Source of the DNA: a virus
Lineage: Duplodnaviria > Heunggongvirae > Uroviricota > Caudoviricetes
IMG/VR virus record: IMGVR_UViG_2548876858_000016
DNA: 19,882 bases
Direction: 5' to 3' (one strand)
The notes beneath the pieces were generated by a model that ran no database searches, was not told the DNA's origin, and was given only the letters and a program-made list of their open reading frames with translations. The first letter of the stretch is position 1. Every line of letters begins with the position of its first letter. Positions 4,974-19,882 of this stretch are shown in pieces. A program made the position numbers and the translations under genes.

Positions 4974-4987
4974 TAAGGGAAAAGCAG

Positions 4988-5347: not shown

Positions 5348-5378
5348 AGTTCTCACAACTCAGGGAACAGGAGAAAAA

Positions 5379-5621
5379 ATGTTCGCTTTGATTAATCAAG
5401 GGCAACTGTATACCGACAGTGCCGGTTACCCGGTAAAAATTATTCGCTGCATAAATAATATCGTGTTGTACAGAAGAATGGATGGGCGAACACAGTCGGT
5501 AAAAATAAACGATTTTAATGAACTGTTTGAACGGATCGATCACCAGGAATACCGACAAATTCTGGCAGAAACAGAGCAGGAAGCTCATCTGAAAAAATTA
5601 CGAGCCATGAAAAGGAAGTAA
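5379..5621 (+). CDS. Hypothetical small protein (80 aa)
   Basis: Internal ATG of track ORF 5283..5621, with AGGAGA SD ~5 nt upstream. Confidence 0.5.
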   Translation: MFALINQGQLYTDSAGYPVKIIRCINNIVLYRRMDGRTQSVKINDFNELFERIDHQEYRQILAETEQEAHLKKLRAMKRK

Positions 5622-5624
5622 AGA

Positions 5625-5771
5625 ATGAATAAAGCATTTGAACGATGGGTCCACCAGCGTTACGGCAATCGCTATGACCTGACACGAGATGTTGACGGTT
5701 TCTACTGTCGTGAAATTGTGAAACGAATGTTTGAAGTGTGGTGCCACTGCCGTGGGCTGAGTGTTGTGTGA
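5625..5771 (+). CDS. Hypothetical small Cys-containing protein (48 aa), not in ORF track
   Basis: My translation: MNKAFERWVHQRYGNRYDLTRDVDGFYCREIVKRMFEVWCHCRGLSVV, stop TGA at 5769-5771. AGGAAG SD ~8 nt upstream; fills the gap between neighbouring genes in the same orientation. Confidence 0.35.
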   Translation: MNKAFERWVHQRYGNRYDLTRDVDGFYCREIVKRMFEVWCHCRGLSVV

Positions 5772-5779
5772 GGTAATGC

Positions 5780-6016
5780 ATGGGCAATGTGATTCAACTG
5801 GCTCCCAATGAATGGGTTTGTGAAAGCGTTCTAATCGCAATTACCGGGCTCAAACCAGGCACAATTCTTCGGGCCCGGAAAGAATGCTGGATGGTTGGAA
5901 GAGAGTATATTCACGTATCACCAGACGGTAATCCAAAGCCTTCCAGTGAATGTATGTATAACAGAAAAGCAATAGATGCCTGGGTTGCTTCAATGAAAAA
6001 CAAACAACCTGGGTGA
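5780..6016 (+). CDS. Excisionase-like (Xis-type) small DNA-binding protein
   Basis: 78-aa ORF immediately upstream of the integrase; EW...R...W...GREY pattern reminiscent of lambda-type Xis; GAGGT SD. Confidence 0.55.
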   Translation: MGNVIQLAPNEWVCESVLIAITGLKPGTILRARKECWMVGREYIHVSPDGNPKPSSECMYNRKAIDAWVASMKNKQPG

Positions 6017-6071
6017 TTTAATGCCATGAAGTATGTAAGCTCGTATCGCTCTTGGGTGTCTGGAGGTATCA

Positions 6072-7385: not shown

Positions 7386-7399
7386 CCTTCAATACCCGT

Positions 7400-7813
7400 C
7401 ATGTTAACTGTGTGGAGGGTAACACCACGCTTTATGCCCTGCCGAAACCCGAGGTTGTCCTGCGCTGGCGTGAGCAGACCACAGATGACTTCCGCTTCTG
7501 TTTTAAGTTTCCGGCGACTATTTCGCATCAGGCAGCATTACGGCATTGCGATGATTTAGTGACTGAATTTTTGACCCGCATGTCACCGTTGGCTCCGCGC
7601 ATTGGACAATACTGGCTGCAACTGCCTGCCACATTCGGCCCACGGGAGCTGCCTGCGCTTTGGCATTTTCTCGACTCTCTTCCCGGCGAATTTAATTATG
7701 GTGTGGAAGTCCGCCATCCACAGTTTTTCGCCAAAGGGGAAGAGGAACAAACGATTAATCGCGGTTTACATCAGCGCGGCGTTAATCGGGTGATTTTCAT
7801 CAGACACGTTTAA
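7400..7813 (+). pseudogene. yecE: Internal fragment of a DUF72-family host gene (yecE-like), disrupted on both sides
   Basis: Frame encodes ~135 aa (VEGNTTLYALPKPEVVLRWREQTTDDFRFCFKFP...GVEVRHPQFF...) with no plausible start. Assignment to DUF72/yecE is from memory of the family. The fragment sits between the integrase and the serine recombinase. Confidence 0.5.
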
Positions 7814-7914
7814 ATACACCACCTAAAGCGATACAATCTAGGGGTTGGTAGATGATTCGGATGAAGCATCCTCATAACAAGCCCAACTGCTATTAGTTTT
7901 TATGGTGGTAAAGA

Positions 7915-9438
7915 ATGAAACGTGTAATCAGCTACATCAGATTCAGTTCTGAGCGACAAGCCAAAGGCGACTCACTACGCAGACAGTCTAAGATGGTTAA
8001 TGACTGGCTTAAGGCTCATCCTGAGTACTACCTTGACCAAGATTTATCCTTCCGTGATTTGGGGGTGAGTGGGTTCACTGGTAAGCACTTGAAAGGTGGC
8101 TTAGGTGACTTTTTAACCGCTATCGAGAAAGGGCTTGTTAAAGCTGGTGATACGCTCTTGATAGAATCTCTTGACCGTCTGTCACGTCAAGATGTAGACC
8201 AAGCAAGTGAGCTACTCAGAAACATTCTTCGCTCTGGTGTAGATGTGGTCACCTTGTCCGATGGTGAACATTACACACGAGAATCTCTTAAAGACCCGTT
8301 AGCTCTGATTAAAAGCATTCTGATAATGCAGCGGTCGCATGAGGAGAGTTTGAGGAAGTCTGAGCGTATACAAGCTGCATGGAACCGTAAAAAAGAACTC
8401 ATCTCTGAAGGTATCAAGATTTCTAAACGTTGTCCTGCATGGCTTAAGCTTAATGATGACCGTAAAAGCTTCTCTGTAATCCCTGAGAAAGTGGAGACTG
8501 TGAAGAGGTGCTTTCAGCTACGGTTAGAGGGTAAGTCTATCTGGGAGATTGTCAGGACTCTTAATGATGAAGGTCACCAGACGCTTAACCAATATAAAGC
8601 GGGTTCATTTGGTCAAACCTCAGTACAAGACCTTCTGAAAAATCGCTCTGTAATTGGTTACTTCACACCTAAAGGCTGTGAAGAGATAGCTGATTATTAT
8701 CCTGCAATTATAGATGAAACAACATTCTACAAAGTCCAGCAACTATCATATGCTCGTTACGGTAGAAAACCTGCTTCAGATAAGCCAATGGCTGTGAATC
8801 TTTTCAAAGGTGTTATCCGTTGCTCTGAATGTGGTCATGCTCTGATTATCACAGGCTTTAGCGATACAAGAAACGGGATTTATCGCTGTCCCCTTCGTAA
8901 TGAAAACCGTTGTAGTGCTAAAGGGCTGTCACGTAAGCAAACCGATGGTACATTGCTTACCCTGCTATCTCGTCTTGACCGATTTGATAGCGATACGACG
9001 AATACCATCGATACACTGAAGTTACACCGTGAACACATCTCAAGCAATATTGAGAAGCTGGTACAGCTATCACTTGAAATTGAAGATTTGTCAGCTATTA
9101 CCAGCAAGCTAAAACAACTAAAGAATGAGCTATCACAGGTTGATGCGGATATCGAGAAGGAGACACAACGCCTTAAATCTATTGATGTGGGGTGTTTGTC
9201 TGATTGTGACTTGACTACAAAGGCGGGAAGGATTGAAGCACAACTGATAATCAAAAGTGCTGTTAAAGAGGTCGTTTTAAATACTGCTAAACGTCGATGT
9301 AAAGTGACTTTTCACAACGGTAAGGTAATTGACCTACCAATAACAGAAAACCCCTCAGACAACGTTACAGAGGCTATACAGTCGCTTTCTGAAGTCACTG
9401 AGAGGGGTTTAATAGATGTTGATGAGGTTATCATATAG
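7915..9438 (+). CDS. Large serine recombinase (resolvase catalytic domain + recombinase domain + zinc-ribbon)
   Basis: 507-aa ORF; N-terminal YIRFSSERQ with catalytic Ser; Cys cluster CSECGH...YRCPLRNENRC; C-terminal coiled coil. Confidence 0.85.
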   Translation: MKRVISYIRFSSERQAKGDSLRRQSKMVNDWLKAHPEYYLDQDLSFRDLGVSGFTGKHLKGGLGDFLTAIEKGLVKAGDTLLIESLDRLSRQDVDQASELLRNILRSGVDVVTLSDGEHYTRESLKDPLALIKSILIMQRSHEESLRKSERIQAAWNRKKELISEGIKISKRCPAWLKLNDDRKSFSVIPEKVETVKRCFQLRLEGKSIWEIVRTLNDEGHQTLNQYKAGSFGQTSVQDLLKNRSVIGYFTPKGCEEIADYYPAIIDETTFYKVQQLSYARYGRKPASDKPMAVNLFKGVIRCSECGHALIITGFSDTRNGIYRCPLRNENRCSAKGLSRKQTDGTLLTLLSRLDRFDSDTTNTIDTLKLHREHISSNIEKLVQLSLEIEDLSAITSKLKQLKNELSQVDADIEKETQRLKSIDVGCLSDCDLTTKAGRIEAQLIIKSAVKEVVLNTAKRRCKVTFHNGKVIDLPITENPSDNVTEAIQSLSEVTERGLIDVDEVII

Positions 9439-9452
9439 TTGAGATTCTATCG

Positions 9453-10226
9453 TCAGTAGCGCTTATTCGGATTCACCGAAAACTTCTTCAAAGTACTACC
9501 TGTACCAGCATTATTAAGCACCTTTGAAGCTTGCTCATTAGCGGCATCTGAGAAGGTGCTTTTTCCGTTCTTAACTCTGACATTCCTACCACAATTGATA
9601 CGGGCTTGAAGTTGCTCATTAGAAAGTTCACTCGTAGAGCGATTATATAGCTCCTGACACATCAACATACCGTTACCTAAGCTTGTCGTAGTGTTCCCTG
9701 TATTCTTTTTGCTGGTAGCACCACCATCATTTGTAGTAGCTGTCTTTCCAGTAGCAGCCGAAATATCAGTTTGACCCACAATAGCTTTAAAGTTAATTTC
9801 CTGAAAAGTTAGCTGGATTCTTAGACCATTTGAAATACCAACATCTTTAGAGGCTTTAAAGCTTGTAATAATGGAGTCATCAATTTTAATACCATCTTTA
9901 CAGATGACCGAAATAATCTGCTTCTGGTCACGCCAGTTTTCAAGAGTGTCGATGAAGTTCTCCACCAGCTTATTATCTCTTGAGATAAGGATACTACCGG
10001 ATTCACCAACCACAACCACACCACTGATTGAAATAGTTCTTGGTGAACGCATTACATTATCTGTTACAGTCTGCCCTGATTGCATATTTTGAGTGGTCAC
10101 CATCATAGGGCTGTCATATTCCATCTGTTCAGTTGCTGATAAGGTTAAGAAATTATCTGGCTGTCCTTGTAGATGGAAGTAAACACCATCTTTACCAGTG
10201 TAACGAAGCTGACTAGTGTAAATCAT
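9453..10226 (-). CDS. Hypothetical protein (257 aa); possible tail component by position downstream of the tape-measure-like gene
   Basis: Track ORF; GGAGA SD 5 nt upstream of ATG; convergent with the recombinase gene. No domain recognised. Confidence 0.55.
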
Positions 10227-10309
10227 TAAATTCTCCTTTGATTTCAGAGACTTAGTGTATTTTAATCATTTTTAACCAAGCCTTTGATATATAAGTGTTT
10301 TCTCTGTTA

Positions 10310-10376
10310 AGCGTGAGCTACGTAAAAAATAATTTTTGGTGGGTATATCTGTTCAGAAGATTTCACGTAGCACACG
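10310..10376. promoter_or_regulatory. Copy A of a duplicated intergenic regulatory element (AAGCGTG..TACGTAAA..GTGGGTAT..CAGA..TTTC..ACGTAGCACAC)
   Basis: Shares ordered conserved blocks with 12501-12594; arms CGTGAGCTACGT / ACGTAGCACACG form an 11/12 inverted repeat; lies upstream of gene 9453-10226. Confidence 0.5.
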
Positions 10377-10389
10377 GATATATAAGAAA

Positions 10390-12480
10390 TCATTCTTCCT
10401 CTGGATAGCTTGAACTTAAGAGCATATCCTGCGTGAACTGGTCATTAGCTGATTGATTGAAAGTAAAGAAAGCTGGTTCATCCGGTCTAACAATTGCTTC
10501 ACCAGTGATATTAACTGACAAGGGCTTCTTAGCTTCTACTGTTAAAGCATCAACCTTGCGTGATAGCTCACTAATAGTCATTGCAAGTTGAGCATTACTA
10601 TTAACCATGTCACCCGTAATAGCTGGTGGAGTTGATTGTGTGTTATTTACGAAGTTATTCATCGGTTCTTGGGAGTTAGCAATTTTATCAGCTGCACTAC
10701 TAAACCAACCTTTAACATCGTCCATAGTGAACACTGGTTTAAGTCCAGACTCTTTAGCTAGCTCTGGTAATTTAGCTTGTGCTTCCATTCGTTCAGGTGT
10801 AGAAGCTAATCTTTCATAACCTGCATAGATAGCACTACCAGCTAATAGCATATTCATAGGGTTTAGTCTTGATGGTTTCCCATTCTTTCTATTCACGTTA
10901 TCCGCTGTGGTATCAGCGACCTGACCTAATCTTGTGATAGCAGTCATAAGCCCGTAAATACTTCTGGTTACACCAACAACTTTATTCACAGCAATAACAC
11001 CAGCCAAGACTTTTAAACTATTAATCAAGCCAGAACCTAAAGCATCAACTACTTTCTTTTGCTCATCGGTTAAACCACGATAAGCTAATGTCACCTCATC
11101 GAAGAATGCTCTTACCCTGTAGCTGATATCAGTCAATGAATCGACACCATGCGACATATCGCTCATCAAGCTACCAAGAGATTCACCAAGACTTTTACCA
11201 CTTCCACCAAGAGCGTTTAAAAGCGTTGTTAGGCTTCTTGTGAAATCTTGAAGACCATTTTCAGAACCTCTGAAGATACTATCAAGCGTGGTATTCCAAG
11301 AGTTTTTCAAGTTCCCTAGTTGTGCCTGTGTACTTTCTGAAATGGCTTTCCAGCCACCTTTAGCGGTGATTTGTCTATTCAGTTCCTGAGTGACCTTCTG
11401 AAGAGTATCGGCAGATTTTAAAGCCCCCTTCTTCATGGCATCAAATAATTCCTGTTCACTCTTTCCGGTTGCTTTAGCGAATACCTGAACCATACCAGGA
11501 ACAGCTTCAGCCAGTTGCCCCTTAAGCTCTTCAGCCATAATCTGACCCTTACCAGCCATCTGTGATAATGCTGTCAGTGCTCGCTTAATCTCTTCTTCAC
11601 TTCTCCCCATCAGACGAGCATAGCCAATCATATTTTTAAAAAGTTCTTCAGAACCTTGAATACCCATAGACTCTTTAGCTGAAGCACCAAAACCAGCAAA
11701 CTGTGATTGCAGTTCAGCGATATCTAAACCCGTTGTTTGAGCTAATGACTTTGTGAACTCTTTTACCTGACCTGCATCTTTATCAAATACGAAATCAATT
11801 GAACGCTCAGCACTTGCACGCTGTAAACCAATTTCCATAATCTTCTGATAACTGGCTAATACAGCCTGCATTGAGATAAATGCACCTGCTGTTTTAACTG
11901 CTGCTGAAGACAGGTTATCAAGACTATTAGCTGCTCTGTCAGCATTAATGCTGGTGGATGTATGACCTCTGGCTTTAGCAATTGCTTCTCTGACTGAAGC
12001 GTTTAACTGAGCTAACTTCTCATTGAATTTTGAAGAATCCATTGACCCGGCTTTAGCAGATAGCCCGTAAAACTGAGATTTGATGTATTTCTGCAAAATA
12101 GGGTCAAAGCCTTTTAGCTTAGACATATTAGCTGAGTAAGCCGCTGTGATTGCTCTGTTGCCGCTAATTAGTGGCTGTCTTGGCTGTCTAAGTGGCTTTA
12201 AAGTATCCTCAATTTCCGTTTTAATCTTAAACGCTCTAGTGTTTTTAAGACGCTGCTCAATCTTGTCAAAGGTCTTATTAAACTTCCTTTCAAGTTGCCC
12301 TAAAGAACTTGTCAGATTGCTGTCAAGTTGCTTGGTATCGACCTTAAACGCTCTATTCAAATTGCGTTCAATTCTTTGTGCTGACTGCAAAGCTGCCTTT
12401 TCAACTCTTTGCAGTCCCTTAATAACGTTTTCATTGAAGCCTAGCTCAACGATAAAACTATCAACTGTGAATTTGCTCAT
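10390..12480 (-). CDS. Phage tail tape-measure-like protein
   Basis: 696-aa ORF; central region (GSEELFKNMIGYARLMGRSEEEIKRALTALSQMAGKGQIMAEELKGQLAEAVPGMVQVFAKATGKSEQELFDAMKKG) matches the tape-measure core pattern; coiled-coil N-terminus; GAGGTG SD. Confidence 0.7.
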   Translation of the reverse strand: MSKFTVDSFIVELGFNENVIKGLQRVEKAALQSAQRIERNLNRAFKVDTKQLDSNLTSSLGQLERKFNKTFDKIEQRLKNTRAFKIKTEIEDTLKPLRQPRQPLISGNRAITAAYSANMSKLKGFDPILQKYIKSQFYGLSAKAGSMDSSKFNEKLAQLNASVREAIAKARGHTSTSINADRAANSLDNLSSAAVKTAGAFISMQAVLASYQKIMEIGLQRASAERSIDFVFDKDAGQVKEFTKSLAQTTGLDIAELQSQFAGFGASAKESMGIQGSEELFKNMIGYARLMGRSEEEIKRALTALSQMAGKGQIMAEELKGQLAEAVPGMVQVFAKATGKSEQELFDAMKKGALKSADTLQKVTQELNRQITAKGGWKAISESTQAQLGNLKNSWNTTLDSIFRGSENGLQDFTRSLTTLLNALGGSGKSLGESLGSLMSDMSHGVDSLTDISYRVRAFFDEVTLAYRGLTDEQKKVVDALGSGLINSLKVLAGVIAVNKVVGVTRSIYGLMTAITRLGQVADTTADNVNRKNGKPSRLNPMNMLLAGSAIYAGYERLASTPERMEAQAKLPELAKESGLKPVFTMDDVKGWFSSAADKIANSQEPMNNFVNNTQSTPPAITGDMVNSNAQLAMTISELSRKVDALTVEAKKPLSVNITGEAIVRPDEPAFFTFNQSANDQFTQDMLLSSSYPEEE

Positions 12481-12500
12481 TCATATTTTTCACCTCTTTA

Positions 12501-12594
12501 AGCGTGTTGTACGTAAATTCTATTTTTCAGTGTGGGTATTAGCTTTACAGATTTCATGAGGATAATTCTTATCCGAATCATCACGTAGCACACA
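12501..12594. promoter_or_regulatory. Copy B of the duplicated intergenic regulatory element, upstream of the tape-measure-like gene
   Basis: Same conserved blocks as 10310-10376 with a ~27-bp insertion; contains CACGTAGCACACAGGAT (12582-12598). Confidence 0.5.
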
Positions 12595-12622
12595 GGATTC
12601 GATAGAAGACTATCTCATATAC

Positions 12623-12663
12623 AAAAAAGGGAGAGCTACCGATGTCACTCGATAATCTCTCCC
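12623..12663 (-). terminator. Candidate intrinsic terminator on the minus strand (GGGAGAG / CTCTCCC stem, 21-nt loop, U6)
   Basis: 7-bp GC-rich stem at 12629-12635 / 12657-12663; on the minus-strand transcript it is followed by UUUUUU (plus-strand A6 at 12623-12628). Loop is long for a terminator. Confidence 0.4.
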
Positions 12664-12688
12664 GTTGATTTTTACCCAACCAATCTTT

Positions 12689-12892
12689 TTACCTAACCAG
12701 ATAATAATTACCATCTTCACCGACAATCTGACAATCACTTGGTAATTTATCAAGACACCATTTAGCGATTCTTCTGATTCTATTCTTTTGCTTAGAGGTG
12801 GATGATTTGATTCGTTTTGGTTTGTTGGGTTGTTCTTTCAATCGTTCACTAATTGCTTTAATAAGCTCATAGCGTTCTGTTAAATCAATCAT
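12689..12892 (-). CDS. Hypothetical small basic protein (67 aa)
   Basis: Track ORF; strong AGGAGGTG SD; Lys/Arg-rich centre (KPKRIKSSTSKQKNRIRRIAK). Confidence 0.5.
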   Translation of the reverse strand: MIDLTERYELIKAISERLKEQPNKPKRIKSSTSKQKNRIRRIAKWCLDKLPSDCQIVGEDGNYYLVR

Positions 12893-12916
12893 TCACCACC
12901 TCCTTTTAATTCATAG

Positions 12917-13657
12917 TTAAAGTGCCTTTGCATATTTCTGAGAAATCTTCACTAACTGCTCAATATCAGCCTGCATAGCAATTTTCTTCTGTGATTCATA
13001 TTCACTAACAAGCTCTTTCATAGTATCAAGCTCTTTTTTAAGCTTTTGCTTTAACTTATCCAGCTTATCGGAGTAATGCTTAGTCAGATTAGCTTCAGCT
13101 AACTGAAGAATCTCTTCATCTGTTTTGTTAGTCATCAGGATATATGAGCCTGTACCACGTGAAGCTTGTCTGACATCCATTAATCGAAAACCGTCAGGAA
13201 TACTTTGAAGCACTTTTGGAACATTCTCTCTTGCTGTACCGAAACCATTGTTGTAATTTCCTTCGTAATAGATAAACGGGTTTGTCTTAAGCTCATATTC
13301 AATATCATATTCTGAAGGTTTCTGAGTTTCTTCGAAGTTTTTGACAACATCATAAGCATTATCAAGCTTGATGCGCTGCTCTTTTAGTAGTGGATAGTAC
13401 TTCCTCTCAAGTGCAATCAGAGCTTCTGTCTTGCAAACATCAGTCATTTCCAGAGGCTCAGGATTGATATATTCAAGATTATTGGCTGGAACAATCTTTC
13501 GCAGCCTTTCTTTTTTGGCCTCTTCATCTGCAAGCTTGGCAATAATTTTGTGATAAGGTTTCATATGTGCATACTCATCTCCTTCATCAGTAAAATGCAA
13601 ATCATATGCACAAGGTTTTCTATCAACAATCGCTTCATGTTCATCACGGATAGACAT
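12917..13657 (-). CDS. Hypothetical protein (246 aa), charged with coiled-coil C-terminus
   Basis: Track ORF; GAGGAAAA SD ~9 nt upstream. Confidence 0.55.
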   Translation of the reverse strand: MSIRDEHEAIVDRKPCAYDLHFTDEGDEYAHMKPYHKIIAKLADEEAKKERLRKIVPANNLEYINPEPLEMTDVCKTEALIALERKYYPLLKEQRIKLDNAYDVVKNFEETQKPSEYDIEYELKTNPFIYYEGNYNNGFGTARENVPKVLQSIPDGFRLMDVRQASRGTGSYILMTNKTDEEILQLAEANLTKHYSDKLDKLKQKLKKELDTMKELVSEYESQKKIAMQADIEQLVKISQKYAKAL

Positions 13658-13692
13658 TATTATTTTTCCTCTTCTAAGATAATTTATGTTTC

Positions 13693-13774
13693 AGTTTTTA
13701 AAAAGCACACCTGACAGCCTACGAACTTAGAAGAGACTTAAAAGGCGGTTTGCCAAGTGCGCTTTTTAAAAGCT
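13693..13774. repeat. 18-bp inverted repeat (AGTTTTTAAAAAGCACAC ... GTGCGCTTTTTAAAAGCT, 16/18) with ~47-bp spacer
   Basis: Seen directly in the sequence, inside a 470-bp ORF-free gap between minus-strand genes. Confidence 0.6.
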
Positions 13775-14130
13775 GAAAAAGCCCTAGATAACTAAAACGC
13801 TATAAAGGGCTAAGGTGAAGAAATTAAAGAACATCCAAAGGATTCAATAACGAATGAACAAAGACTTTTTGAGATAGCCTATCTAGTGTGGGCTAAATAG
13901 GCCATGACGAAAAGCATTGCACCTTTCCAACTCAGAATAACTATCATTGATGTAGAATGATTAATAGTTTAATTCAGGAAGAGTTGCTCTCCCCTATTAC
14001 CATCATCTCATGCTTAAGGTTATTTGTCAACAGCTTTTAACAGATTGATAACATCAATTCTTATTTACTGTGTTACCCACCCAGCAACCAACAAATAAGC
14101 CAAGCAACGTCCAAGCAATTATTAAGCCCA

Positions 14131-14454
14131 TTAGTGAACCCTCACGGAATCCGTAACCAAAATATTATCGCTGTACAGGATTGTCACAGCACCTTTCAAA
14201 AATCGCTCTGGGGAAATACTGTATTTGTTCGTTTGCTCAATAACCAATCTTTTCATATTACTGTCTGTAATTGGTAACATCATTCGAGGCTCGTTAAACT
14301 CCACCGAGTGAATAAAGTCAGAGATGCTTTCCGCATTATCAGCCATTAACTCTAACAACTTATCAAAGTCAATGCTAACACCTACATCAGTGAAAGCCTG
14401 AATCATCATGGCGGTGTCGGTATCAATAAAAATCTGTAGTGGGAAATTATTCAT
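14131..14454 (-). CDS. Hypothetical protein (107 aa)
   Basis: Internal Met of track ORF 14131..14565 (MNNFPLQIFIDTDTAMM...), with AGGA SD 9 nt upstream. Confidence 0.5.
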   Translation of the reverse strand: MNNFPLQIFIDTDTAMMIQAFTDVGVSIDFDKLLELMADNAESISDFIHSVEFNEPRMMLPITDSNMKRLVIEQTNKYSISPERFLKGAVTILYSDNILVTDSVRVH

Positions 14455-14592
14455 TTTTAAAATCCTATAAAAACACATCTTAAATCTGCCAAAATAGCCA
14501 TTCTGAGGCCAGTAACCATGCGGGTTACAGAGGGAGTGAGACACCTTAGTAATAGGGTAGCTCATCTTTGAGTCTCACTCATTCTCACAGAC

Positions 14593-14979
14593 TTACACAG
14601 ACGCTTTAATCTTGTAGTATTGACTACGTGATAAGCCGTATTTCTCAGAAATATAACTTTGTGATTGTCCTTTGGTGATTGCATCAATGATTAAATCTTT
14701 ATCGTATCTGTTACCGTTGGCTTTGTGCTTGTCACTATTTTTAATAGAGTTGAAGTTCTCCATTAATTCAATGGCGTCTTTAAGGTCGCTTTCGTAAGCA
14801 TAATCAAAACCTCTGATAAACTCGAAATCACCATTATCTTTTTGTGCTTCAGCCCAGATATCAAATCTTGAGGCTAATTGCTGGTGGGTAAACTTGGGCT
14901 TATTGGTTTGTGTTACGTCTTTCCAGACCTTACCGTCAAATCTTACCAAATGGTCACGATGCTTATAAAAATCATACAT
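14593..14979 (-). CDS. Hypothetical protein with C-terminal HTH (128 aa)
   Basis: Track ORF; GGAGG SD; C-terminal ITKGQSQSYISEKYGLSRSQYYKIK resembles a resolvase/Hin-type or small-terminase-type HTH. Start overlaps the upstream stop (TAATG). Confidence 0.55.
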   Translation of the reverse strand: MYDFYKHRDHLVRFDGKVWKDVTQTNKPKFTHQQLASRFDIWAEAQKDNGDFEFIRGFDYAYESDLKDAIELMENFNSIKNSDKHKANGNRYDKDLIIDAITKGQSQSYISEKYGLSRSQYYKIKASV

Positions 14980-15257
14980 TAAACCTCCATTGCTAATTTG
15001 TGAATTTTGATACTTAGTAATCTTGCTAAATCCAGTCCAAAGGCATTTAGAGCCTTCAGACTATCAAGGTCATCTTGCTTAATCCTGATATGGTGTCTTG
15101 CTGCCTCTAAACGACTATTAAGCAAATCCTGCTCGTTAATATCACGGTTAATTGCAAGCTTCATCACTGCTGAGTGTGGCAGACCTGTAATGTTTTTGAT
15201 TCGGTTAAGTTCGTCAAAGGCTGTCTTTGTAACTCTGGTTAAAGTGTGCTTAGTCAT
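14979..15257 (-). CDS. Hypothetical protein (92 aa)
   Basis: Track ORF; tightly packed between neighbours in one minus-strand operon. Confidence 0.5.
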   Translation of the reverse strand: MTKHTLTRVTKTAFDELNRIKNITGLPHSAVMKLAINRDINEQDLLNSRLEAARHHIRIKQDDLDSLKALNAFGLDLARLLSIKIHKLAMEV

Positions 15258-15260
15258 TAT

Positions 15261-15824
15261 TTAAAATCCTTCTGCTTGTGCGTACACGTCAAATTCAAAG
15301 TCTGGCTCACTGCTTGTAAGACTGATATTACCAACGGTAATATGATGCTCGACAATACCAATTAACTTTGCGCACATCACAGCAAGTAATGCGCAATAGG
15401 CATCGCTTGGTAACTCATGGCTTAACCTGGTTGCCTGACGCTGGAGATGGTTTGTCACGGTAGCTGAGTTAATTTCATCAAGATTCTTTAGAAGATAAAA
15501 CAATTTCTTGTTGTATTTTGGGTGCCCCTCACTTCTGCAAAATCCGATAAGAATGTCGTCAAGCTTGCTCGGTAATTGCTCGTAGCTGTCAAAGTTAGCC
15601 AGATAATTCTTGATGCTGTTCTTTGTTGTTTTGCGTACTGACATATAACGACTCCTCGGTGTAATTGCCCGAATTACTTCGTCAATGCCTTTGCGTTCTG
15701 CTCTGGTGAACTTGGGTGCTTCGTGGCTGGTGGGGGAGTTTGTGTAGCTGTAGGAGTTGTAGGAGTTGTATCTGTTACGTTGTCTCGATGCCTGAAGCAT
15801 CGCTCTAAATTCTCTGTCGTTCAT
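15261..15824 (-). CDS. Hypothetical protein (187 aa) with in-frame 9-bp tandem repeat
   Basis: Track ORF; AAGGA SD 11 nt upstream; GTAGGAGTT x2.3 at 15750-15770 encodes NSYNSYSY. Confidence 0.55.
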   Translation of the reverse strand: MNDREFRAMLQASRQRNRYNSYNSYSYTNSPTSHEAPKFTRAERKGIDEVIRAITPRSRYMSVRKTTKNSIKNYLANFDSYEQLPSKLDDILIGFCRSEGHPKYNKKLFYLLKNLDEINSATVTNHLQRQATRLSHELPSDAYCALLAVMCAKLIGIVEHHITVGNISLTSSEPDFEFDVYAQAEGF

Positions 15825-15910
15825 TCATAAGCTAGTCCTTATAATTGTTAATTCTCTGTTAACTTATATAGACAATACTAGCATTTTCAAAGACTAATGT
15901 CAAGCATTTT

Positions 15911-15940
15911 TTAACATTTCATTAACATCTGTGGTATAAT
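15911..15940 (+). promoter_or_regulatory. Candidate sigma70 promoter with extended -10 (TTAACA-18-TGgTATAAT)
   Basis: TATAAT at 15935-15940 preceded by TG at 15932-15933; TTAACA at 15911-15916. Confidence 0.5.
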
Positions 15941-16122
15941 GGTTCTATGGGGAGAGTAAAATATAAAGGCGTGGCTATGAGAGTGGTCATATGGTTATTG
16001 CATTGCACACAGACCTCTTCAATCGCTCTGTAACGAGTTAAATGGCCTCTTCAGGTCAACATATAAGGTCAGGTACTTTTTTGTGTCAGAATGCGATTGA
16101 GAGCGTCTTACAAGGAAAACTA

Positions 16123-16299
16123 ATGGTAAATCTCCCTCCTGAGCTGGGGTCACCTGATGTATGGGCTGGTGGAGGTGTTGGGCTGATTGCAGGTCTGCTA
16201 CTTCGCTACGTCCTCGTCAGAGTGCTTGTTGTCTTTAAACTGTTCGGTCGTACATGGACGCTTGACCTTAAGGATAACGACCACACAGAACCCCGTTAA
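16123..16299 (+). CDS. Candidate small single-TM protein (58 aa)
   Basis: Internal ATG of track ORF 16042..16299, with AAGGA SD 6 nt upstream; hydrophobic segment VGLIAGLLLRYVLVRVLVVF; downstream of the 15911-15940 promoter. Confidence 0.35.
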   Translation: MVNLPPELGSPDVWAGGGVGLIAGLLLRYVLVRVLVVFKLFGRTWTLDLKDNDHTEPR

Positions 16300-16340
16300 A
16301 CTCCCTTCAAAACCCCCTGTACGTGATGGTATAGGGGTAT

Positions 16341-16357
16341 CTTTAGCATTTTGTGCT
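16341..16357. promoter_or_regulatory. Copy 1 of 17-bp dyad motif CTTTAGCAWWWWGTGCT
   Basis: CTTTAGCATTTTGTGCT; internal dyad AGCA-N5-TGCT; same motif recurs at 17471-17487 and inverted at 17501-17517. Confidence 0.45.
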
Positions 16358-16525
16358 ATCTATTAATAAATAGCTTGACATAACCGGAAAACTGAATCTA
16401 TCAAGTATTCACCCCTCTGACAGTAATTTCTAAAAATGCTTATTTTTCAATGAGTTGTAATTAGCCAATATAAAGGACTGACAAGACTCTTCACAGAGAA
16501 CTTTCAAGACTCACTAAGACACAAG

Positions 16526-16562
16526 GCGATAACCCCAGACAGGGAGAGCCTCCTTCTTAACC
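16526..16562. repeat. Direct repeat copy A (GCGATAACCCCAGACAGGG...TCTTAAC)
   Basis: ~75% identical to 16696-16732; contains a CCCC-N5-GGG mini-hairpin. Confidence 0.5.
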
Positions 16563-16695
16563 GACTTCTTAAACAATCTTTACAGACCCCCGTTCACCAG
16601 TCTCAATATTTTTATTTCTCGCTCTTCGTTTTTTGCTCGTTTCTATTATTGAGGGGGTTTGAAAAACCTCTGTAAAATAACCCTTCCAGTAAAAA

Positions 16696-16732
16696 GCGAA
16701 TAACCCCAGAAAGGGGAAATCGCATCTTTAAC
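16696..16732. repeat. Direct repeat copy B (GCGAATAACCCCAGAAAGGGG...TCTTTAAC)
   Basis: Pairs with 16526-16562; contains the perfect hairpin CCCCagaaaGGGG. Confidence 0.5.
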
Positions 16733-16763
16733 ATTCTCGTAATCAGTGCTCTATATGAGAACT

Positions 16764-17432
16764 TCAGCCCAACCTTTGAACAATCCTGTAAGTGGTGCTT
16801 AGAGGTATTCTTAGCGATTCTGCGATGCTCTTGATGGGTTGCCCTTGGTCATACATTTTAATCAACCTGTCAAGCGTCTGTGCATCGTGCATATGAGGTC
16901 TTCCACGTAAACCACCCCTGTTAACCACGGCAAGTAAAAGCATTGTGTCACCACAATAGATTGTCTGGGTAACTTCAACTTTCGGTTTGCGGGGTGTGTT
17001 CCTGTATATCAAAACGCAACTTGGAAACGGTGAGCGCACTACAACACCTCTCTTTCCTGCTGGTGGAAGGTATTTGACTGCTCGGTGTAACGTTCGAATC
17101 TCATGCAGGAAGGGGTTTGTATATACACACCGAAGCCAGTAAGTTGTCTTTGACCTGAGCGGAACCAGACATACACACACATCAGCTTCAGGGGCTTTTA
17201 AGAGGAACTTTTCAGCCATGCTAAACGGCGGGTTAACGAAGACCCGTTCACCAACCCATGATTGATTGTGAATATCATCGGTGAACCGTGGCAACAATGC
17301 GTCATACTCAGTTGCAGCACCATCTAGACTGAAGTTAAACTCACGATGCAGGTTATGAAATAAACGATACGGTGTACGCCAGTCATCAGAACCACCATGA
17401 TAACGACCAACATTGATTATTGGATGCGACAC
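16764..17432 (-). CDS. Phage Dam-family N6-adenine DNA methyltransferase fused to a C-terminal resolvase/Hin-type HTH
   Basis: 222-aa ORF with GTG start (AGAGGGG SD ~10 nt upstream). N-terminal ~150 aa shows DDWRTP...F.F.LDGAA...NPPFS...SPFPS, which I recognise as the phage Dam MTase pattern; C-terminal GRPHMHDAQTLDRLIKMYDQGQPIKSIAESLRIPLSTTYRIVQRLG resembles a serine-recombinase HTH. Confidence 0.7.
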   Translation of the reverse strand: MSHPIINVGRYHGGSDDWRTPYRLFHNLHREFNFSLDGAATEYDALLPRFTDDIHNQSWVGERVFVNPPFSMAEKFLLKAPEADVCVCLVPLRSKTTYWLRCVYTNPFLHEIRTLHRAVKYLPPAGKRGVVVRSPFPSCVLIYRNTPRKPKVEVTQTIYCGDTMLLLAVVNRGGLRGRPHMHDAQTLDRLIKMYDQGQPIKSIAESLRIPLSTTYRIVQRLG

Positions 17433-17470
17433 AAGCGAAGCGCCCCTCTTAGTATATTTCTTAATCGTCT

Positions 17471-17517
17471 CTTTAGCATTTAGTGCTTTTTGTTAAGTTT
17501 AGCACTTTTTGCTAAAG
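17471..17517. promoter_or_regulatory. Inverted pair of the 17-bp dyad motif, upstream of the Dam-HTH gene; candidate operator
   Basis: CTTTAGCATTTAGTGCT (17471-17487) and reverse complement of CTTTAGCAAAAAGTGCT (17501-17517), 13-bp spacer; 40-85 bp upstream of the GTG start; a minus-strand TATACT -10 candidate lies at 17451-17456. Confidence 0.45.
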
Positions 17518-17944
17518 ACAAAAGCATTGACAAAATGGTAGGATTGTTCACATAGCCCTTACTTAACAGACTCTTAAGAGCTTTGAAACAGCCTGTTTAA
17601 CAAGGTCACTACCTCTGGTCTTATCGTTCCCTTCTTTCTAGGTAGTCATCTGTTAAGAACTTTTCAGTTTTATTCTTAAGATAATTGTTAAGATGATACT
17701 CTCCCTTCGGGTTATATCGTATCTCTCCTCCCGTTAAATATCCCTTCACAGTCAGACTAAATAACACCTGTGTAGTTTCTTGGTAGAATCTTTCAAGGTA
17801 ACTTAACTCTGAGTTTATGAAGTTGACCTATGAGATAGACTCTACCGAATCTGTTAGTCAATTGTTGCTTAGGTGCTGCTAAGGCTTACTTAGTGGGAAG
17901 AGAGGGAATATGTGACCATAGGAACCCCTCCTGTTAAAAGCTTC

Positions 17945-17972
17945 TTGACGTTACTATCTCGATATGTATAAT
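17945..17972 (+). promoter_or_regulatory. Near-consensus sigma70 promoter (TTGACG-16-TATAAT)
   Basis: TTGACG at 17945-17950, 16-bp spacer, TATAAT at 17967-17972; no credible ORF downstream. Confidence 0.5.
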
Positions 17973-17979
17973 GGCTTAC

Positions 17980-18148
17980 TGTACTAGGTTTACTTCCAAA
18001 GCAACCAAGCACACTCTCTATGGCAGTGTCCAGCGAGGTAAGGTCGTGTAGGGTGCGGTTCGGTGGGGTAAGGTTTGGTGCGGTATGGGTGGATTGTCGT
18101 AGCCACGTTAAAAATCGACTTATAGGGACTCTTTCGGGAGTCCTTTTT
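17980..18148 (+). ncRNA. Candidate ~170-nt small RNA bounded by promoter and intrinsic terminator; G-rich internal tandem repeat
   Basis: Starts ~7 nt after the -10 and ends at the 18125-18148 terminator; contains GGTAAGGT...GGTGCGGT twice (18046-18095); the only overlapping ORF (18020-18298) reads through the terminator and looks non-coding. Confidence 0.4.
18125..18148 (+). terminator. Rho-independent terminator (GGACTC-tttcgg-GAGTCC + T5)
   Basis: 6-bp stem at 18126-18131 / 18138-18143, T-run 18144-18148; plus-strand specific. Confidence 0.6.
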
Positions 18149-18298
18149 AGTTTGTATAAAATCTGTACAGTAACTTTTCAGAGTCTGAAAATTTTTATAA
18201 ATATCGTAGTAACCCCTCTACATTCCCCTTCACCGATAATTTTCAAAAATATCTACACTCAATTGATGGCTGTTAAGTACCCCAGATTCACGATATAG

Positions 18299-18308
18299 CC
18301 CCCCCCCC
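18299..18308. repeat. Homopolymeric C10 tract
   Basis: Ten consecutive C in intergenic DNA, immediately upstream of a promoter-like TTGCAA-16-TATAAC (18310-18337). Confidence 0.9.
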
Positions 18309-19048
18309 TTTGCAAAAGCAGTTAAAATATCTATAACCAACCATTGACTTTCTTCATGATATCTGTTTAGCCCCACCTCAATAAGCCATCATCACACATC
18401 AAAGCATCTATCAAGAAGGTTTAACCTATCAATAGCTGTAACATTTTATAGTTCTGTGAAGTCCTATCCAGTTTTCTCTGTAACAGCTACAAACTTCTGT
18501 GACCTTATGTGTCAATGACTTATAAGACATGCTCTCAAGGTGCTGTATAGCCTCTTATCAGCCAATACACAAAACCCTTATAAATCAGTACTGATATGTA
18601 TACAGTATGTTTTTAACATAATAGCTGTTTTACGCACTAATAAGCACCTACGTAGATTCTGTATAGAGATTAAGATGTCTCTAAGTGATTTTTTAAGAGG
18701 AGATACGAAGGAACTATAACCATCACTTCATAACTTTCACGTAGGTAACTATTAAGTAGGTTGATAGTCACTTTGAGGGAATATTGATAGTGACCAACTG
18801 CATAGACACCGTTATATAGCCCTGTATATAGCACTATATGTAGTGTCTGGAGAGGGACGACTAACACGATATAGTTTACCCTGAAAAGAGGATTTACAGA
18901 TTCTCTATACATTTCAATAAGTTATGATAAAAAGGGGCTATGTCGATACTGTATAGAATCTGTGTAGGATTGCATAGATACTTGGAAAAATACCGTTAAA
19001 TTGCATAGGTACTAACCTGTTTATGTCCTGTTATTTACAGGCATAGCA

Positions 19049-19882
19049 TTATTGGTTAATTAATTCATCCGACTCTATATCATTACCTTTTTCTTTTTCC
19101 TTTTTAATTTTAGCCTCTACCATATCGAACATTTTCATTGTCTGTGATGAAGTTAGCTCTTTCTTTTGTCGTAGCGCGTTACGTATGGTAGAAGCTTCAA
19201 TATCAGAAACTGTTAAAAGTTCTTCTACCCTACTCTTCAATTGCTGTAATGAACGGCTATTATCAACTTTAAAGAAATCATCCATTACCTCAAGTGAGGC
19301 AACAATCAAATCCTGTAGTCTCTCTTTTTCTATCTCGATATTTTCAATGGTTTGTTTTTCTTTAGATACTAACTGCTTTAAATTATTAATTTCTTTCTGA
19401 ATCAGTTTCTTCTCTGTCTGTAGCTCTTCTGTGACCAGCTCTTCACGCTTACCACGCTCTACTTCCGCTTTAATATCAGCATCAATTTTAGCATTTTCTT
19501 TCTCTTCTTCTCTGGCAGCCCGAACCTTTAACCCCGTTAACCTGATTGAATCCAAGTATTCTTTTTCCTTTGTAAGATAAACATTTTCATTGTGTTTATC
19601 TGTAGCCCATTTTTGAGCAAGAGAAAGTAACCATTGAGCATAAGGAGTAATAACAGCTAGCACACCTCCAAAAAAGACAGGAGCAAGCAGATAATGAGCG
19701 TAAAAATATTCCTGAGATAGTATATAATCTATTCGAAACTTAACAGGCGCATCACTCATAAAGAGCATTGCTAAGTTAGGCCAGTTGAACCATACCCATG
19801 CAAGAATGATATATCCCCATAATGGGCTTTTAATCCTATCGTTTATTGCTTGCATAGTAGAATCTAACCACCCATCACTCAT
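19049..19882 (-). CDS. Membrane-anchored coiled-coil protein (two N-terminal TM segments + long K/E-rich coiled coil); start at or beyond window edge
   Basis: Track ORF; hydrophobic segments LWGYIILAWVWFNWPNLAMLF and YLLAPVFFGGVLAVITPYAQWLL, then heptad-like K/E-rich sequence. The Met at 19880-19882 is the last codon in the window, so the true start may lie outside. Confidence 0.55.
   Translation of the reverse strand: MSDGWLDSTMQAINDRIKSPLWGYIILAWVWFNWPNLAMLFMSDAPVKFRIDYILSQEYFYAHYLLAPVFFGGVLAVITPYAQWLLSLAQKWATDKHNENVYLTKEKEYLDSIRLTGLKVRAAREEEKENAKIDADIKAEVERGKREELVTEELQTEKKLIQKEINNLKQLVSKEKQTIENIEIEKERLQDLIVASLEVMDDFFKVDNSRSLQQLKSRVEELLTVSDIEASTIRNALRQKKELTSSQTMKMFDMVEAKIKKEKEKGNDIESDELINQ

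What the first reader, a model, noticed from the sequence alone, without database searches (positions are those of the whole stretch)
19049..19882. Membrane-anchored long coiled-coil protein at the right window edge
Seen: two N-terminal hydrophobic helices followed by ~200 aa of K/E-rich heptad-like sequence. The gene is transcribed convergently to the upstream ORF-poor region and may continue beyond the window. Inference: this architecture is typical of membrane sensors or effectors in abortive-infection and exclusion systems and of some holin-like or scaffold proteins; function is unknown.
Basis: partly seen in the sequence, partly recalled or inferred. Interest (0 to 1): 0.45.

Follow-up and report, generated by a model that had tools for sequence, protein, structure and literature searches.

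The report
Membrane-anchored cargo protein, probable phage defence
This is a complete, conserved gene for an uncharacterised inner-membrane protein with a long helical stalk. It rides as optional cargo at the edge of a mobile island in E. coli, and its position and neighbours make an anti-phage role the best guess, though nothing here proves it.

Summary
The ORF is real and complete: 19049-19882, minus strand, 277 aa. It has two hydrophobic helices, a roughly 145-residue continuous helix and a small C-terminal helical domain. Clear heptads cover only about aa 150-200. No member matches Pfam, NCBIfam or PADLOC, or any solved or viral fold. The only matches are PHROGs of unknown function. The family is large (707 clusters at 50% identity) and its closer members are all Enterobacterales. 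The 61-90 aa membrane module is highly conserved, and the rest is variable and swapped by recombination. In E. coli the gene is optional cargo in the slot next to attR of a serine-recombinase island inserted in yecE. That slot is empty in both sampled islands of the commonest types. Elsewhere, relatives sit at prophage or island edges or as opposite-strand morons. They lie next to AbiTii, Shedu, Druantia II, PD-Lambda-4, PDC-S15 or a CI repressor, with no conserved partner gene. My best reading is a single-gene, membrane-acting anti-phage factor, either abortive-infection-like or exclusion-like. This rests on context only. Holin, spanin and scaffold readings are disfavoured. In passing, the host island shares tail genes and a non-coding repeat element with virulent Felix O1-like phages. 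That island may be the more interesting object.

The parts
19049..19882 (-). Complete CDS of 277 aa plus the stop codon at 19049-19051. The start ATG is at 19880-19882, the last bases of the window.
   Evidence: ORF list and translation. The same CDS is annotated in NZ_CP160468. An in-frame stop lies 21 nt upstream and a GAGG Shine-Dalgarno is present. dN/dS is 0.15-0.30.
19829..19882 (-). aa 1-18: N-terminal helix, containing the family-invariant Arg (R16 in protein numbering), placed just before the first membrane helix.
   Evidence: AF2 helix 4-16. Invariant columns of alignments A1 and A2.
19757..19828 (-). aa 19-42: first hydrophobic helix, PLWGYIILAWVWFNWPNLAMLFM, with a conserved kink at FNWPN. 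This is the best conserved part of the family.
   Evidence: Kyte-Doolittle profile. Mean identity is 92% in A1, against 35-55% in the C-terminal half. AF2 breaks the helix at residues 31/33.
19703..19756 (-). aa 43-60: short conserved loop, SDAPVKFRIDYILSQ, predicted to be periplasmic.
   Evidence: 93% identity in A1. It has the fewest K+R of the three flanking segments. The topology is inferred.
19616..19702 (-). aa 61-89: second hydrophobic helix, which runs on without a break into the stalk.
   Evidence: Kyte-Doolittle profile. AF2 helix 59-203. The recombination breakpoint between alleles falls at aa 61/62.
19433..19615 (-). aa 90-150: charged helical stalk with the conserved motif NAKIDADIKAEVERGKRE (aa 126-150). 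Heptad signal is weak here.
   Evidence: 79% identity for aa 126-150 in A1, and weak heptad scores. AF2 model.
19274..19432 (-). aa 151-203: the segment with a clear heptad (coiled-coil) pattern.
   Evidence: Heptad score 0.5-0.65 in a constant register. Only generic coiled-coil matches to PDB.
19052..19273 (-). aa 204-277: variable small C-terminal helical domain (three helices in the full-length model, after the end of the stalk) of unknown fold.
   Evidence: AF2 models. No Foldseek PDB match below E = 2.6. This is the least conserved region.
17433..19048 (.). Context, not part of the gene: a conserved non-coding backbone segment of the host island, directly 3' of the gene. The gene is inserted between this segment and attR.
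   Evidence: Window 18150-19045 matches 433 of 5426 complete E. coli genomes and is mostly annotated 'none'. It is 85-94% identical even where the cargo allele differs or is absent.
7811..7823 (+). Context: left end of the island. This is the attP-type half-site TAAATACACCACC, which abuts the truncated yecE 5' part. An inverted copy lies about 85 nt beyond the gene's ATG, outside the window.
   Evidence: yecE fragments flank the island in L001.
7915..9438 (+). Context: the island's large serine recombinase.
   Evidence: Pfam Resolvase + Recombinase + Zn_ribbon_recom.

Best explanation
The gene is optional cargo (a 'moron') of a mobile island. It encodes an inner-membrane protein that most likely protects the lysogen or island carrier against phages, acting alone.

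Proposed mechanism. A constant N-terminal module dips into or spans the inner membrane as a two-helix hairpin. It comprises a short helix, a kinked hydrophobic helix with the WFNWPN motif, a conserved loop and a second transmembrane helix. The long helix that continues from the second transmembrane helix oligomerises through its heptad segment (aa ~150-200). It holds a variable stalk and a variable C-terminal domain in the cytoplasm. That variable part recognises a phage product. Recognition changes the packing of the membrane module, which permeabilises or otherwise disables the membrane and aborts the infection. This is the sensor-plus-membrane-effector logic of abortive-infection systems.

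Shown here: the ORF is intact and under purifying selection; the architecture; the conservation gradient and the modular swap at aa 61/62; cargo status in an island hotspot; recurrent placement at mobile-element edges and beside defence systems; absence of a conserved partner gene.

Inferred: N-in/C-in topology, oligomerisation, sensing, the membrane effect, and the anti-phage role itself. I put an anti-phage role of any kind at about 0.55 and this particular abortive sensor-effector mechanism at about 0.35.
For: Cargo status. The ORF-poor backbone segment occurs in 433 of 5426 E. coli genomes, but this gene occurs in only 49. The slot between that segment and attR is empty in both sampled islands of the commonest types. 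It holds an unrelated 306-aa ORF in 14 genomes, and it holds divergent alleles of this family, 38-43% identical, at the same position.

Foreign composition. The gene is 34% GC, against about 40% for the island.

Contexts of relatives:
- a Klebsiella integrase island with AbiTii and Shedu;
- a serine recombinase-AbiTii-target arrangement in a metagenome contig;
- convergent with and adjacent to PD-Lambda-4_A in a prophage, between RecT and an S24 repressor;
- beside Druantia II;
- a restriction-modification pair 4 kb away;
- PDC-S15 in the adjacent variable region of the E. coli island;
- 241 nt downstream of a phage CI repressor on the same strand;
- the gap between the replication and nin regions of lambdoid prophages;
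- an opposite-strand moron in a Uetakevirus;
- next to an integrase at prophage ends;
- between RelBE and an IS on an IncF plasmid;
- a lone gene between core genes in Serratia.
No partner gene is shared across these loci.

Modular structure. Residues 1-61 are 100% identical, and the first 183 nt 98.4% identical, between two alleles whose remainder is 19-39% identical. Mean identity to the window protein in alignment A1 is 92-93% in aa 19-60 and 35-57% in the C-terminal half. dN/dS is lowest in the membrane module. The positive-inside count favours a cytoplasmic stalk.
Against: There is no experimental evidence. There is no sequence or fold similarity to any known defence, Abi or exclusion protein. 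Guilt by association at mobile-element edges also fits other cargo functions. The topology rests on a weak charge bias, and the AF2 confidence in the membrane module is low (pLDDT 45-68). One relative lies inside a head-morphogenesis operon. A strongly conserved membrane module could equally mean binding to a conserved host membrane protein, which would point to an injection block rather than a pore.
Confidence: 0.35

Rival explanations
1. Superinfection-exclusion protein that blocks phage genome entry at the inner membrane without killing the cell. The conserved membrane module and loop would bind a conserved host entry factor or the phage ejection or tape-measure conduit. The stalk would be a spacer or oligomerisation device.
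For: The protein is membrane-anchored, prophage- or island-encoded and a single gene. The membrane module and its loop are the most conserved parts, as expected for contact with a conserved partner. One relative lies directly downstream of a CI repressor and would be expressed in the lysogen. P22 SieA is an inner-membrane single-gene injection blocker with sequence types <30% identical to one another (PMC10883804). SNIPE shows that membrane-anchored elongated proteins can act at the injection site through tape-measure proteins (PMC13190303).
Against: Known injection blockers such as SieA (a small inner-membrane protein by my recollection, not checked here) carry no roughly 190-aa helical soluble part. 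The most variable, recombining part is the predicted cytoplasmic region, which an entry block at the periplasmic face would not need. Target alleles and island tape-measure alleles show no co-variation. No homology to PHROGs annotated as exclusion proteins.
Confidence: 0.2
2. Accessory membrane protein with a role other than phage defence. Examples are a lysogenic-conversion factor that alters envelope physiology, a toxin-like addiction or competition factor for the mobile element, or a factor by which the island manipulates its helper phage.
For: The same cargo positions also host non-defence morons. The E. coli carrier island shares tail genes and a non-coding element with Felix O1-like phages, so helper manipulation is conceivable. 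One homologue lies next to a RelBE module on a plasmid. No recognisable enzymatic or sensing domain is present.
Against: The gene is absent from most islands of the family, so it is not needed for island biology. It recurs beside validated defence systems in unrelated elements. It also occurs alone between core genes.
Confidence: 0.25
3. Housekeeping phage protein: a holin or antiholin, an i-spanin or a scaffolding protein.
For: Coiled coil plus an N-terminal membrane anchor superficially resembles an i-spanin. One distant relative (P0146) lies between the portal/Bbp19 genes and the major capsid gene, where scaffolds are encoded.
Against: No Pfam or PHROG lysis or scaffold match. The protein has two hydrophobic helices and 277 aa. 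No ORF of at least 50 aa overlaps the gene on its coding strand, so there is no embedded o-spanin-sized ORF of that size. The gene is never next to an endolysin. Prophages that carry it have their own holin, lysozyme and spanin. It occurs in islands, plasmids and chromosomal islets without any virion or lysis genes. A scaffold with two transmembrane helices is implausible.
Confidence: 0.05

Closest known systems
PHROG families phrog_13369, phrog_4780, phrog_35327, phrog_22645 and phrog_8191 (all 'unknown function')
   Same: True sequence relatives. HMM matches reach E = 2.6e-17 and 1.9e-13 and cover the membrane module and stalk. This is the only library membership found.
   Different: None has a described function, so membership says nothing about mechanism.
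P22 SieA (superinfection exclusion; PMC10883804)
   Same: A single prophage-expressed inner-membrane protein that is sufficient on its own. It exists as very divergent sequence types.
   Different: No detectable sequence similarity. SieA lacks the long helical stalk and C-terminal domain (from my own recollection of SieA; the paper's sequence details were not checked). Its demonstrated targets are the P22 ejection proteins gp16 and gp20. Nothing comparable is known here.
SNIPE / PD-lambda-1 (PMC13190303)
   Same: A single-gene defence protein found in E. coli, with an N-terminal membrane anchor and an elongated cytoplasmic part. It acts at the membrane.
   Different: SNIPE has one transmembrane helix, a DUF4041 domain and a GIY-YIG nuclease. 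The present protein has no DUF4041, no nuclease domain and no PADLOC PD-Lambda-1 match.
Transmembrane effector modules of abortive-infection systems (for example lambda RexB, and the two-transmembrane effectors of CBASS, Pycsar and retrons); from my own knowledge, not tested here
   Same: The logic is the same: a conserved short membrane module is coupled to a variable sensing part and causes membrane damage on activation.
   Different: Those effectors are triggered by a separate sensor protein or a nucleotide signal encoded next to them. Here there is no conserved neighbour, and no signal-binding domain is recognisable.
HK97 gp15 moron (superinfection exclusion; cited in the reference list of PMC11364771)
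   Same: A membrane protein encoded by a moron inserted in a prophage. It acts alone, in connection with the tape-measure and injection step.
   Different: It is much smaller by my recollection, with no stalk.

Membership tests
Uncharacterised phage/prophage family (phrog_13369 / phrog_4780) | Significant profile match over most of the protein | tested here: met
   E = 2.6e-17 (aa 9-198) and E = 1.9e-13 (aa 7-260). In addition, 707 clusters at 50% identity match the family profile at E <= 1e-3.
Known or candidate defence systems (PADLOC-DB v2.0.0) | Match to any of the 5027 defence protein models | tested here: not met
   No hits for the window protein at E <= 1. Eight divergent relatives give either no hit or only weak matches (E >= 9.6e-5), nearly all within the stalk and mostly to coiled-coil-rich models such as LmuB and DruC.
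Pfam Abi families (Abi_alpha/DUF4393, AbiTii, Abi_C, AbiH and others) and any other Pfam or NCBIfam family | HMM match above or near the gathering threshold | tested here: not met
   The only hit is TH_ACT at E = 0.087, far below its cutoff. NCBIfam gives none. The 47 distant members give only coiled-coil noise.
SNIPE / PD-lambda-1 | DUF4041 domain plus a C-terminal GIY-YIG nuclease behind a membrane anchor | tested here: not met
   No DUF4041 or GIY-YIG match in Pfam and no PD-Lambda-1 model hit. The SNIPE architecture is taken from PMC13190303.
Holins | Small membrane protein encoded in a lysis cassette next to an endolysin | tested here: not met
   The protein is 277 aa with a 190-aa soluble part. 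It is never adjacent to an endolysin in about 17 contexts. Carrier prophages have separate holin and lysozyme genes. No Pfam or PHROG lysis hit.
i-spanins (Rz-like) | Single N-terminal transmembrane helix, periplasmic coiled coil, and an embedded or adjacent o-spanin lipoprotein gene in the lysis cassette | tested here: not met
   The protein has two hydrophobic helices. No ORF of at least 50 aa overlaps the gene on its coding strand. The carrier prophage L026 has its own DUF2570 spanin. The charge bias favours a cytoplasmic stalk (weak).
Superinfection-exclusion proteins annotated in PHROGs (SieA, SieB, Imm and similar) | Sequence similarity to an annotated exclusion family | tested here: not met
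   All seven PHROG hits at E <= 1 are 'unknown function'. Functional equivalence cannot be tested with these tools.
Phage scaffolding proteins | Soluble helical protein encoded between the portal/protease gene and the major capsid gene | tested here: not met
   The protein has two transmembrane helices. In the window it lies at the island edge, far from any head gene. Only 1 of about 17 contexts (P0146) is in a head operon.
Canonical coiled-coil proteins | Sustained heptad periodicity of hydrophobic residues | tested here: inconclusive
   The pattern is clear for aa ~150-200. It is not significant over aa 101-205 against shuffles (90 of 500). The family profile matches only generic coiled coils in PDB.

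The most novel reading that the evidence does not exclude
The protein founds a new family of single-gene, membrane-embedded anti-phage effectors. The family would be built from a constant 61-aa membrane module and a swappable cytoplasmic sensor stalk. In E. coli it would be carried as optional cargo by a so-far undescribed integrative island, present in about 8% of complete genomes. That island borrows a tape-measure gene, the adjacent baseplate gene (72% identical to Felix O1) and a non-coding repeat element from strictly virulent Felix O1-like phages. The island would therefore be a satellite of, or a decoy defence against, that phage group.
Probability: 0.25. Interest if true: 0.7.

Novelty: new variant of a known kind. 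Interest (0 to 1): 0.42.

Why it matters
If the anti-phage role holds, this would add a widespread, very compact (277 aa, single-gene) membrane-acting defence family. Its modular build, a constant membrane module with exchangeable stalks, would make specificity swaps easy to test. The family has 707 clusters at 50% identity in public data, and every named member examined here comes from Enterobacterales. It would also mark the attR-proximal slot of the yecE island as a defence-cargo hotspot in E. coli. For phage therapy and typing, such cargo genes help explain strain-to-strain differences in phage sensitivity. If the role does not hold, this is one more conserved hypothetical moron. As it stands it is a reasonable but not exceptional candidate. 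The island that carries it deserves its own look.

Tried and rejected
- A family profile against PDB sequences found only generic coiled coils.
- A conserved downstream partner or RNA. The ORF-poor regions 3' of the gene in E. coli, Enterobacter and Klebsiella share no similarity by blastn or tblastx. Rfam finds nothing in 15800-19882, and there are no tRNAs.
- Co-variation between the cargo allele and the island's tape-measure allele, as expected for an exclusion/bypass pair. None was seen.
- Positive selection in the variable part. There are too few substitutions among the close alleles; the only clear signal is purifying selection. One sequence (L017) was extracted out of frame and its values were discarded.
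- The search for related loci with the divergent alignment A2 failed for lack of a conserved stretch. With A1 it returned only 4 genome loci and 3 viral loci.
- Literature. Searches for the protein accessions, for a yecE serine-recombinase island and for a Felix O1 satellite returned no paper describing any of them. The yecE literature I read concerns Stx prophages that use a tyrosine integrase. Tai systems (PMC11364771) show no sign of being membrane proteins: 'transmembrane' and 'coiled' do not occur in the paper's text.

Full report
**1. What is at the coordinates**

The minus strand of 19049-19882 carries a 277-codon ORF whose ATG is the last three bases of the window. A 99.8%-identical copy in E. 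coli PEC1009 (NZ_CP160468) is annotated with exactly the same ends. There, an in-frame TAA lies 21 nt upstream of the ATG and no alternative start exists. A GAGG Shine-Dalgarno sits 7 nt upstream, and a TATGAT -10-like hexamer lies further up. The protein is therefore complete and the worry about truncation is unfounded. Among three E. coli alleles, dN/dS is 0.15-0.30 overall and 0.07-0.15 in the first 95 codons. This is a functional gene under purifying selection. Its G+C content is about 34%, below the island's roughly 40%.

**2. Architecture**

Kyte-Doolittle analysis finds two hydrophobic segments, aa 24-43 and aa 60-89. Residues 101-277 are 42% charged. AlphaFold2 with a 27-sequence alignment gives a mean pLDDT of 71, lower (45-68) in the membrane part. 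The model contains:
- a short N-terminal helix;
- a first hydrophobic helix broken at the conserved FNWPN;
- a short loop helix;
- one uninterrupted helix from residue 59 to 203, that is the second membrane helix running straight into a stalk of about 115 residues;
- three short C-terminal helices.

A heptad pattern is clear only for about aa 150-200. Over aa 101-205 it does not beat composition-matched shuffles (90 of 500). Residues 126-150 carry the conserved motif NAKIDADIKAEVERGKRE. Counts of K+R across two family alignments are lowest in the loop between the hydrophobic helices and highest after the second helix. This weakly favours both termini, and hence the stalk, being cytoplasmic.

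**3. Homology**

No match reaches significance in Pfam or NCBIfam, and PADLOC gives none. PHROGs gives five significant matches, the best at E = 2.6e-17, and all are 'unknown function'.

A word-indexed search found 179 relatives, the named ones from Enterobacterales, named 'hypothetical' or, by PGAP, 'myosin/kinesin family protein'. An exhaustive profile search of 1.84 billion cluster representatives found 707 clusters at E <= 1e-3 and 93 at E <= 1e-10, mostly 240-390 aa long. Forty-seven divergent members carry no Pfam domain beyond coiled-coil noise. Eight carry no PADLOC match beyond weak matches lying mostly in the stalk.

The family-defining part is the membrane module. Mean identity to the window protein is 92-93% over aa 19-60 in the closer alignment, against 35-57% in the C-terminal half. 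In the divergent alignment, R15, P19, N32, W33, P67 and P79 (numbered on the alignment's first sequence, which lacks the initiator Met; add 1 for protein numbering) are invariant.

**4. Genomic setting in E. coli**

The window contains an island of about 12 kb inserted in the middle of yecE. Its parts, in order, are:
- the truncated yecE 5' part (7412-7813);
- a half-site, TAAATACACCACC, at 7811-7823;
- a large serine recombinase (7915-9438);
- a Dit-like tail protein (9453-10226, minus strand);
- a tape-measure protein (10390-12480, minus strand);
- six small ORFs;
- a Dam-type methyltransferase;
- a 1.6-kb ORF-poor stretch (17433-19048);
- the target gene.

The inverted half-site and the yecE 3' part follow about 85 nt beyond the window.

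The ORF-poor segment next to the gene is present in 433 of 5426 complete E. coli genomes. The target gene is present in only 49, always at this position. In both sampled islands of the commonest types, the ORF-poor segment abuts attR with nothing in between. In 14 genomes, including O157:H7 strains, an unrelated 306-aa ORF on the other strand fills the slot. It has no Pfam or PADLOC hit.

Alleles of the target family only 43% and 38% identical, P0282 and P0280, occupy the same slot in otherwise syntenic islands. The P0282 type is found in just one of the 5426 complete genomes. The island as a whole is mosaic: its tape-measure protein varies between 43% and 81% identity.

The P0282 allele is 100% identical to the window protein over aa 1-61, and 98.4% identical over the first 183 nt. 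It is 19-39% identical thereafter. This sharp intragenic recombination joint lies at the start of the second membrane helix. The variable region just inside the slot carries, in different strains, a methyltransferase, a resolvase plus a 178-aa ORF, or an IS plus the candidate defence gene PDC-S15 (FRG domain). The gene is thus optional cargo in a hotspot, not part of the island's core.

**5. Settings of relatives elsewhere**

The independent contexts examined were:
- Klebsiella: the far edge of an integrase island that also holds AbiTii and Shedu.
- Enterobacter: beside a three-gene TCAD9 / histidine-kinase-type ATPase / SMC-like system, next to the ogr end of a P2-like prophage in one strain.
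- Serratia marcescens: alone between core genes.
- A metagenome contig: serine recombinase, then AbiTii, then the target.
- A small tape-measure-bearing element: next to its integrase.
- A lambdoid prophage: between the replication genes and the nin/Q region.
- Klebsiella phage ST11-VIM1phi8.2: the same place, on the opposite strand.
- A Uetakevirus: an opposite-strand insertion.
- An IMG/VR prophage: convergent with and adjacent to a full-length PD-Lambda-4_A gene, between the RecT/exonuclease module and an S24 repressor.
- Rahnella: 241 nt downstream of a phage CI repressor on the same strand.
- Serratia fonticola: beside Druantia type II and an IS.
- Ewingella: 4 kb from a methylase/restriction pair.
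- A prophage end: next to the integrase.
- An IncF plasmid: between RelBE and an IS.
- One podophage-like prophage: inside the head operon, between the portal/Bbp19 genes and the capsid gene.

No neighbouring gene is shared across these loci. The ORF-poor regions that follow the gene in different genera are unrelated.

**6. Interpretation**

Five features match what is routinely seen for prophage- and island-borne anti-phage genes:
- a patchy distribution;
- a foreign base composition;
- placement in cargo slots next to att sites, integrases and repressors;
- recurrent company of validated defence systems;
- independence from any partner gene.

Within that frame, the conservation pattern argues for a two-part protein. 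The first part is a constant membrane module with unusual invariant Trp, Asn, Pro and Arg residues. That is more than a passive anchor would need. The second part is a variable, recombining stalk and C-terminal domain. My preferred mechanism is a self-contained sensor-effector. The cytoplasmic variable part would recognise a phage product, and oligomers held by the heptad segment would rearrange the membrane hairpins and compromise the membrane, aborting infection (confidence about 0.35).

The main rival is a non-lethal block of genome entry, as for P22 SieA (PMC10883804), or action at the injection site as for SNIPE (PMC13190303). The strongly conserved loop and membrane helices would suit contact with a conserved entry component (about 0.2). 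A non-defence accessory role cannot be excluded (about 0.25).

Holin, spanin and scaffold readings are disfavoured (about 0.05). There is no lysis or scaffold homology. The protein has two membrane helices and 277 aa. No ORF of at least 50 aa overlaps it on its coding strand. Carrier prophages have their own lysis cassettes. The gene also occurs where no virion genes exist.

**7. Comparison with what is known, and novelty**

The protein belongs to PHROG families of unknown function and to no described family. It fails every membership test for known defence, Abi, exclusion, lysis and scaffold families that could be run here. It resembles SieA, HK97 gp15, SNIPE and transmembrane Abi effectors only in general logic. 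I rate it a new variant of a known kind: a mobile-element-borne, single-gene membrane protein with a probable anti-phage role. Interest is moderate, because many such candidates exist and nothing here is mechanistically surprising.

**8. Things seen on the way**

The island itself is unusual. Its Dit-like protein is 72% identical over its full length to the protein encoded directly after the tape-measure gene in Salmonella phage Felix O1 and about 260 relatives. The best phage matches of its tape-measure protein are Felix O1-like phages, at 29% identity over the full length.

An 85-100-nt array of GGTNNGGT-type repeats in the island's conserved non-coding region (about 18019-18119) matches a non-coding region in 106 phage records, at 75-81% identity in those listed. 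Nearly all the listed records are Felix O1-like. In SUSP2 the match lies between the DNA ligase gene and gp040.

Felix O1-like phages are, as far as I know, strictly virulent, so the island is not one of their remnants. It may be a satellite of them, or a decoy-type defence against them. No paper in the searchable library links Felix O1-like phages with a satellite.

The same non-coding region carries seven TGYATAG motifs within 465 bp. It also carries a promoter-like site and a terminator-like hairpin that would bracket a transcript of about 170 nt.

Noticed in passing
window 7811-19882 (island); Dit-like protein 9453-10226, tape-measure protein 10390-12480: The yecE-inserted serine-recombinase island encodes a tape-measure protein and the adjacent baseplate (Dit-like) protein in the same order as Felix O1. 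The Dit-like protein is 72% identical over its full length to the Felix O1 protein. The tape-measure protein's best phage hits are Felix O1-like phages (29% identity). Its conserved non-coding backbone segment is found in 433 of 5426 complete E. coli genomes. The island family is mosaic and also occurs at a second site (ymdF/rutG). It may be a satellite of, or a decoy defence against, virulent Felix O1-like phages. I found no literature on it.
   Followed up: partly
window ~18019-18119: An array of GGTNNGGT-type repeats, 85-100 nt long, ends in GGTATGGGTGGATnGTnGTAGCCACGTTAAAAATC. It matches a non-coding region in 106 phage records, at 75-81% identity in those listed; nearly all the listed records are Felix O1-like. 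In SUSP2 the match lies in the 580-nt gap between the DNA ligase gene and gp040. It could mimic an origin, a packaging site or a regulatory site.
   Followed up: partly
window 17433-19048: This ORF-poor stretch is conserved non-coding island backbone. It is 85-94% identical between islands and is mostly annotated 'none' by PGAP. Seven TGYATAG motifs cluster in 18544-19008, and inverted repeats lie at 18895-18911 and 18950-18966. There is no Rfam hit and no tRNA.
   Followed up: partly
window 17945-18156, + strand: A promoter-like site (TTGACG-16-TATAAT, 11 of 12 matches) at 17945-17972 and a terminator-like hairpin with a T-run at 18124-18145 bracket a possible transcript of about 170 nt. That transcript would contain the Felix O1-like repeat element. 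Its fold z-score is -2.25. It is present in some island variants only.
   Followed up: partly
L038 4935-5855 (E. coli 06-3462; also O157:H7 strains): In 14 complete genomes, the same attR-proximal cargo slot holds an unrelated 306-aa ORF on the opposite strand. It has no Pfam or PADLOC match and is another uncharacterised cargo gene.
   Followed up: partly
window 19700-19882 versus L029 9001-9183: There is an intragenic recombination joint. The first 183 nt (aa 1-61) are 98.4% identical in DNA and 100% identical in protein between two alleles whose remainder is only 19-39% identical.
   Followed up: yes
window 16764-17432, minus strand: The methyltransferase ORF combines an N-terminal Dam domain with a C-terminal resolvase-type HTH_7 (Pfam E = 1.1e-12 and 1.3e-6). 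This is either an unusual fusion or a recombination scar.
   Followed up: no
window 1-7813: A second, unrelated prophage end abuts the 5' end of the same yecE gene, which lacks about 25 codons. It includes a CI-like S24 repressor candidate at 872-1564 and a tyrosine integrase at 6072-7385. yecE is therefore doubly occupied. This matches the known use of yecE by Stx and other lambdoid phages.
   Followed up: partly
window 4120-4947, + strand: A 275-aa ORF near the integrase end of the left prophage has a lipoprotein-like signal (…LVGC) and what looks by eye like an SPFH/band-7-type sequence. It may be another membrane-associated moron. This is read from the translation only.
   Followed up: no
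L029 9833-10369: In islands with the P0282 allele, a 178-aa ORF overlaps the end of the target gene by 20 nt, which suggests an operon. It has no Pfam or PADLOC match and is absent from the window's allele.
   Followed up: partly
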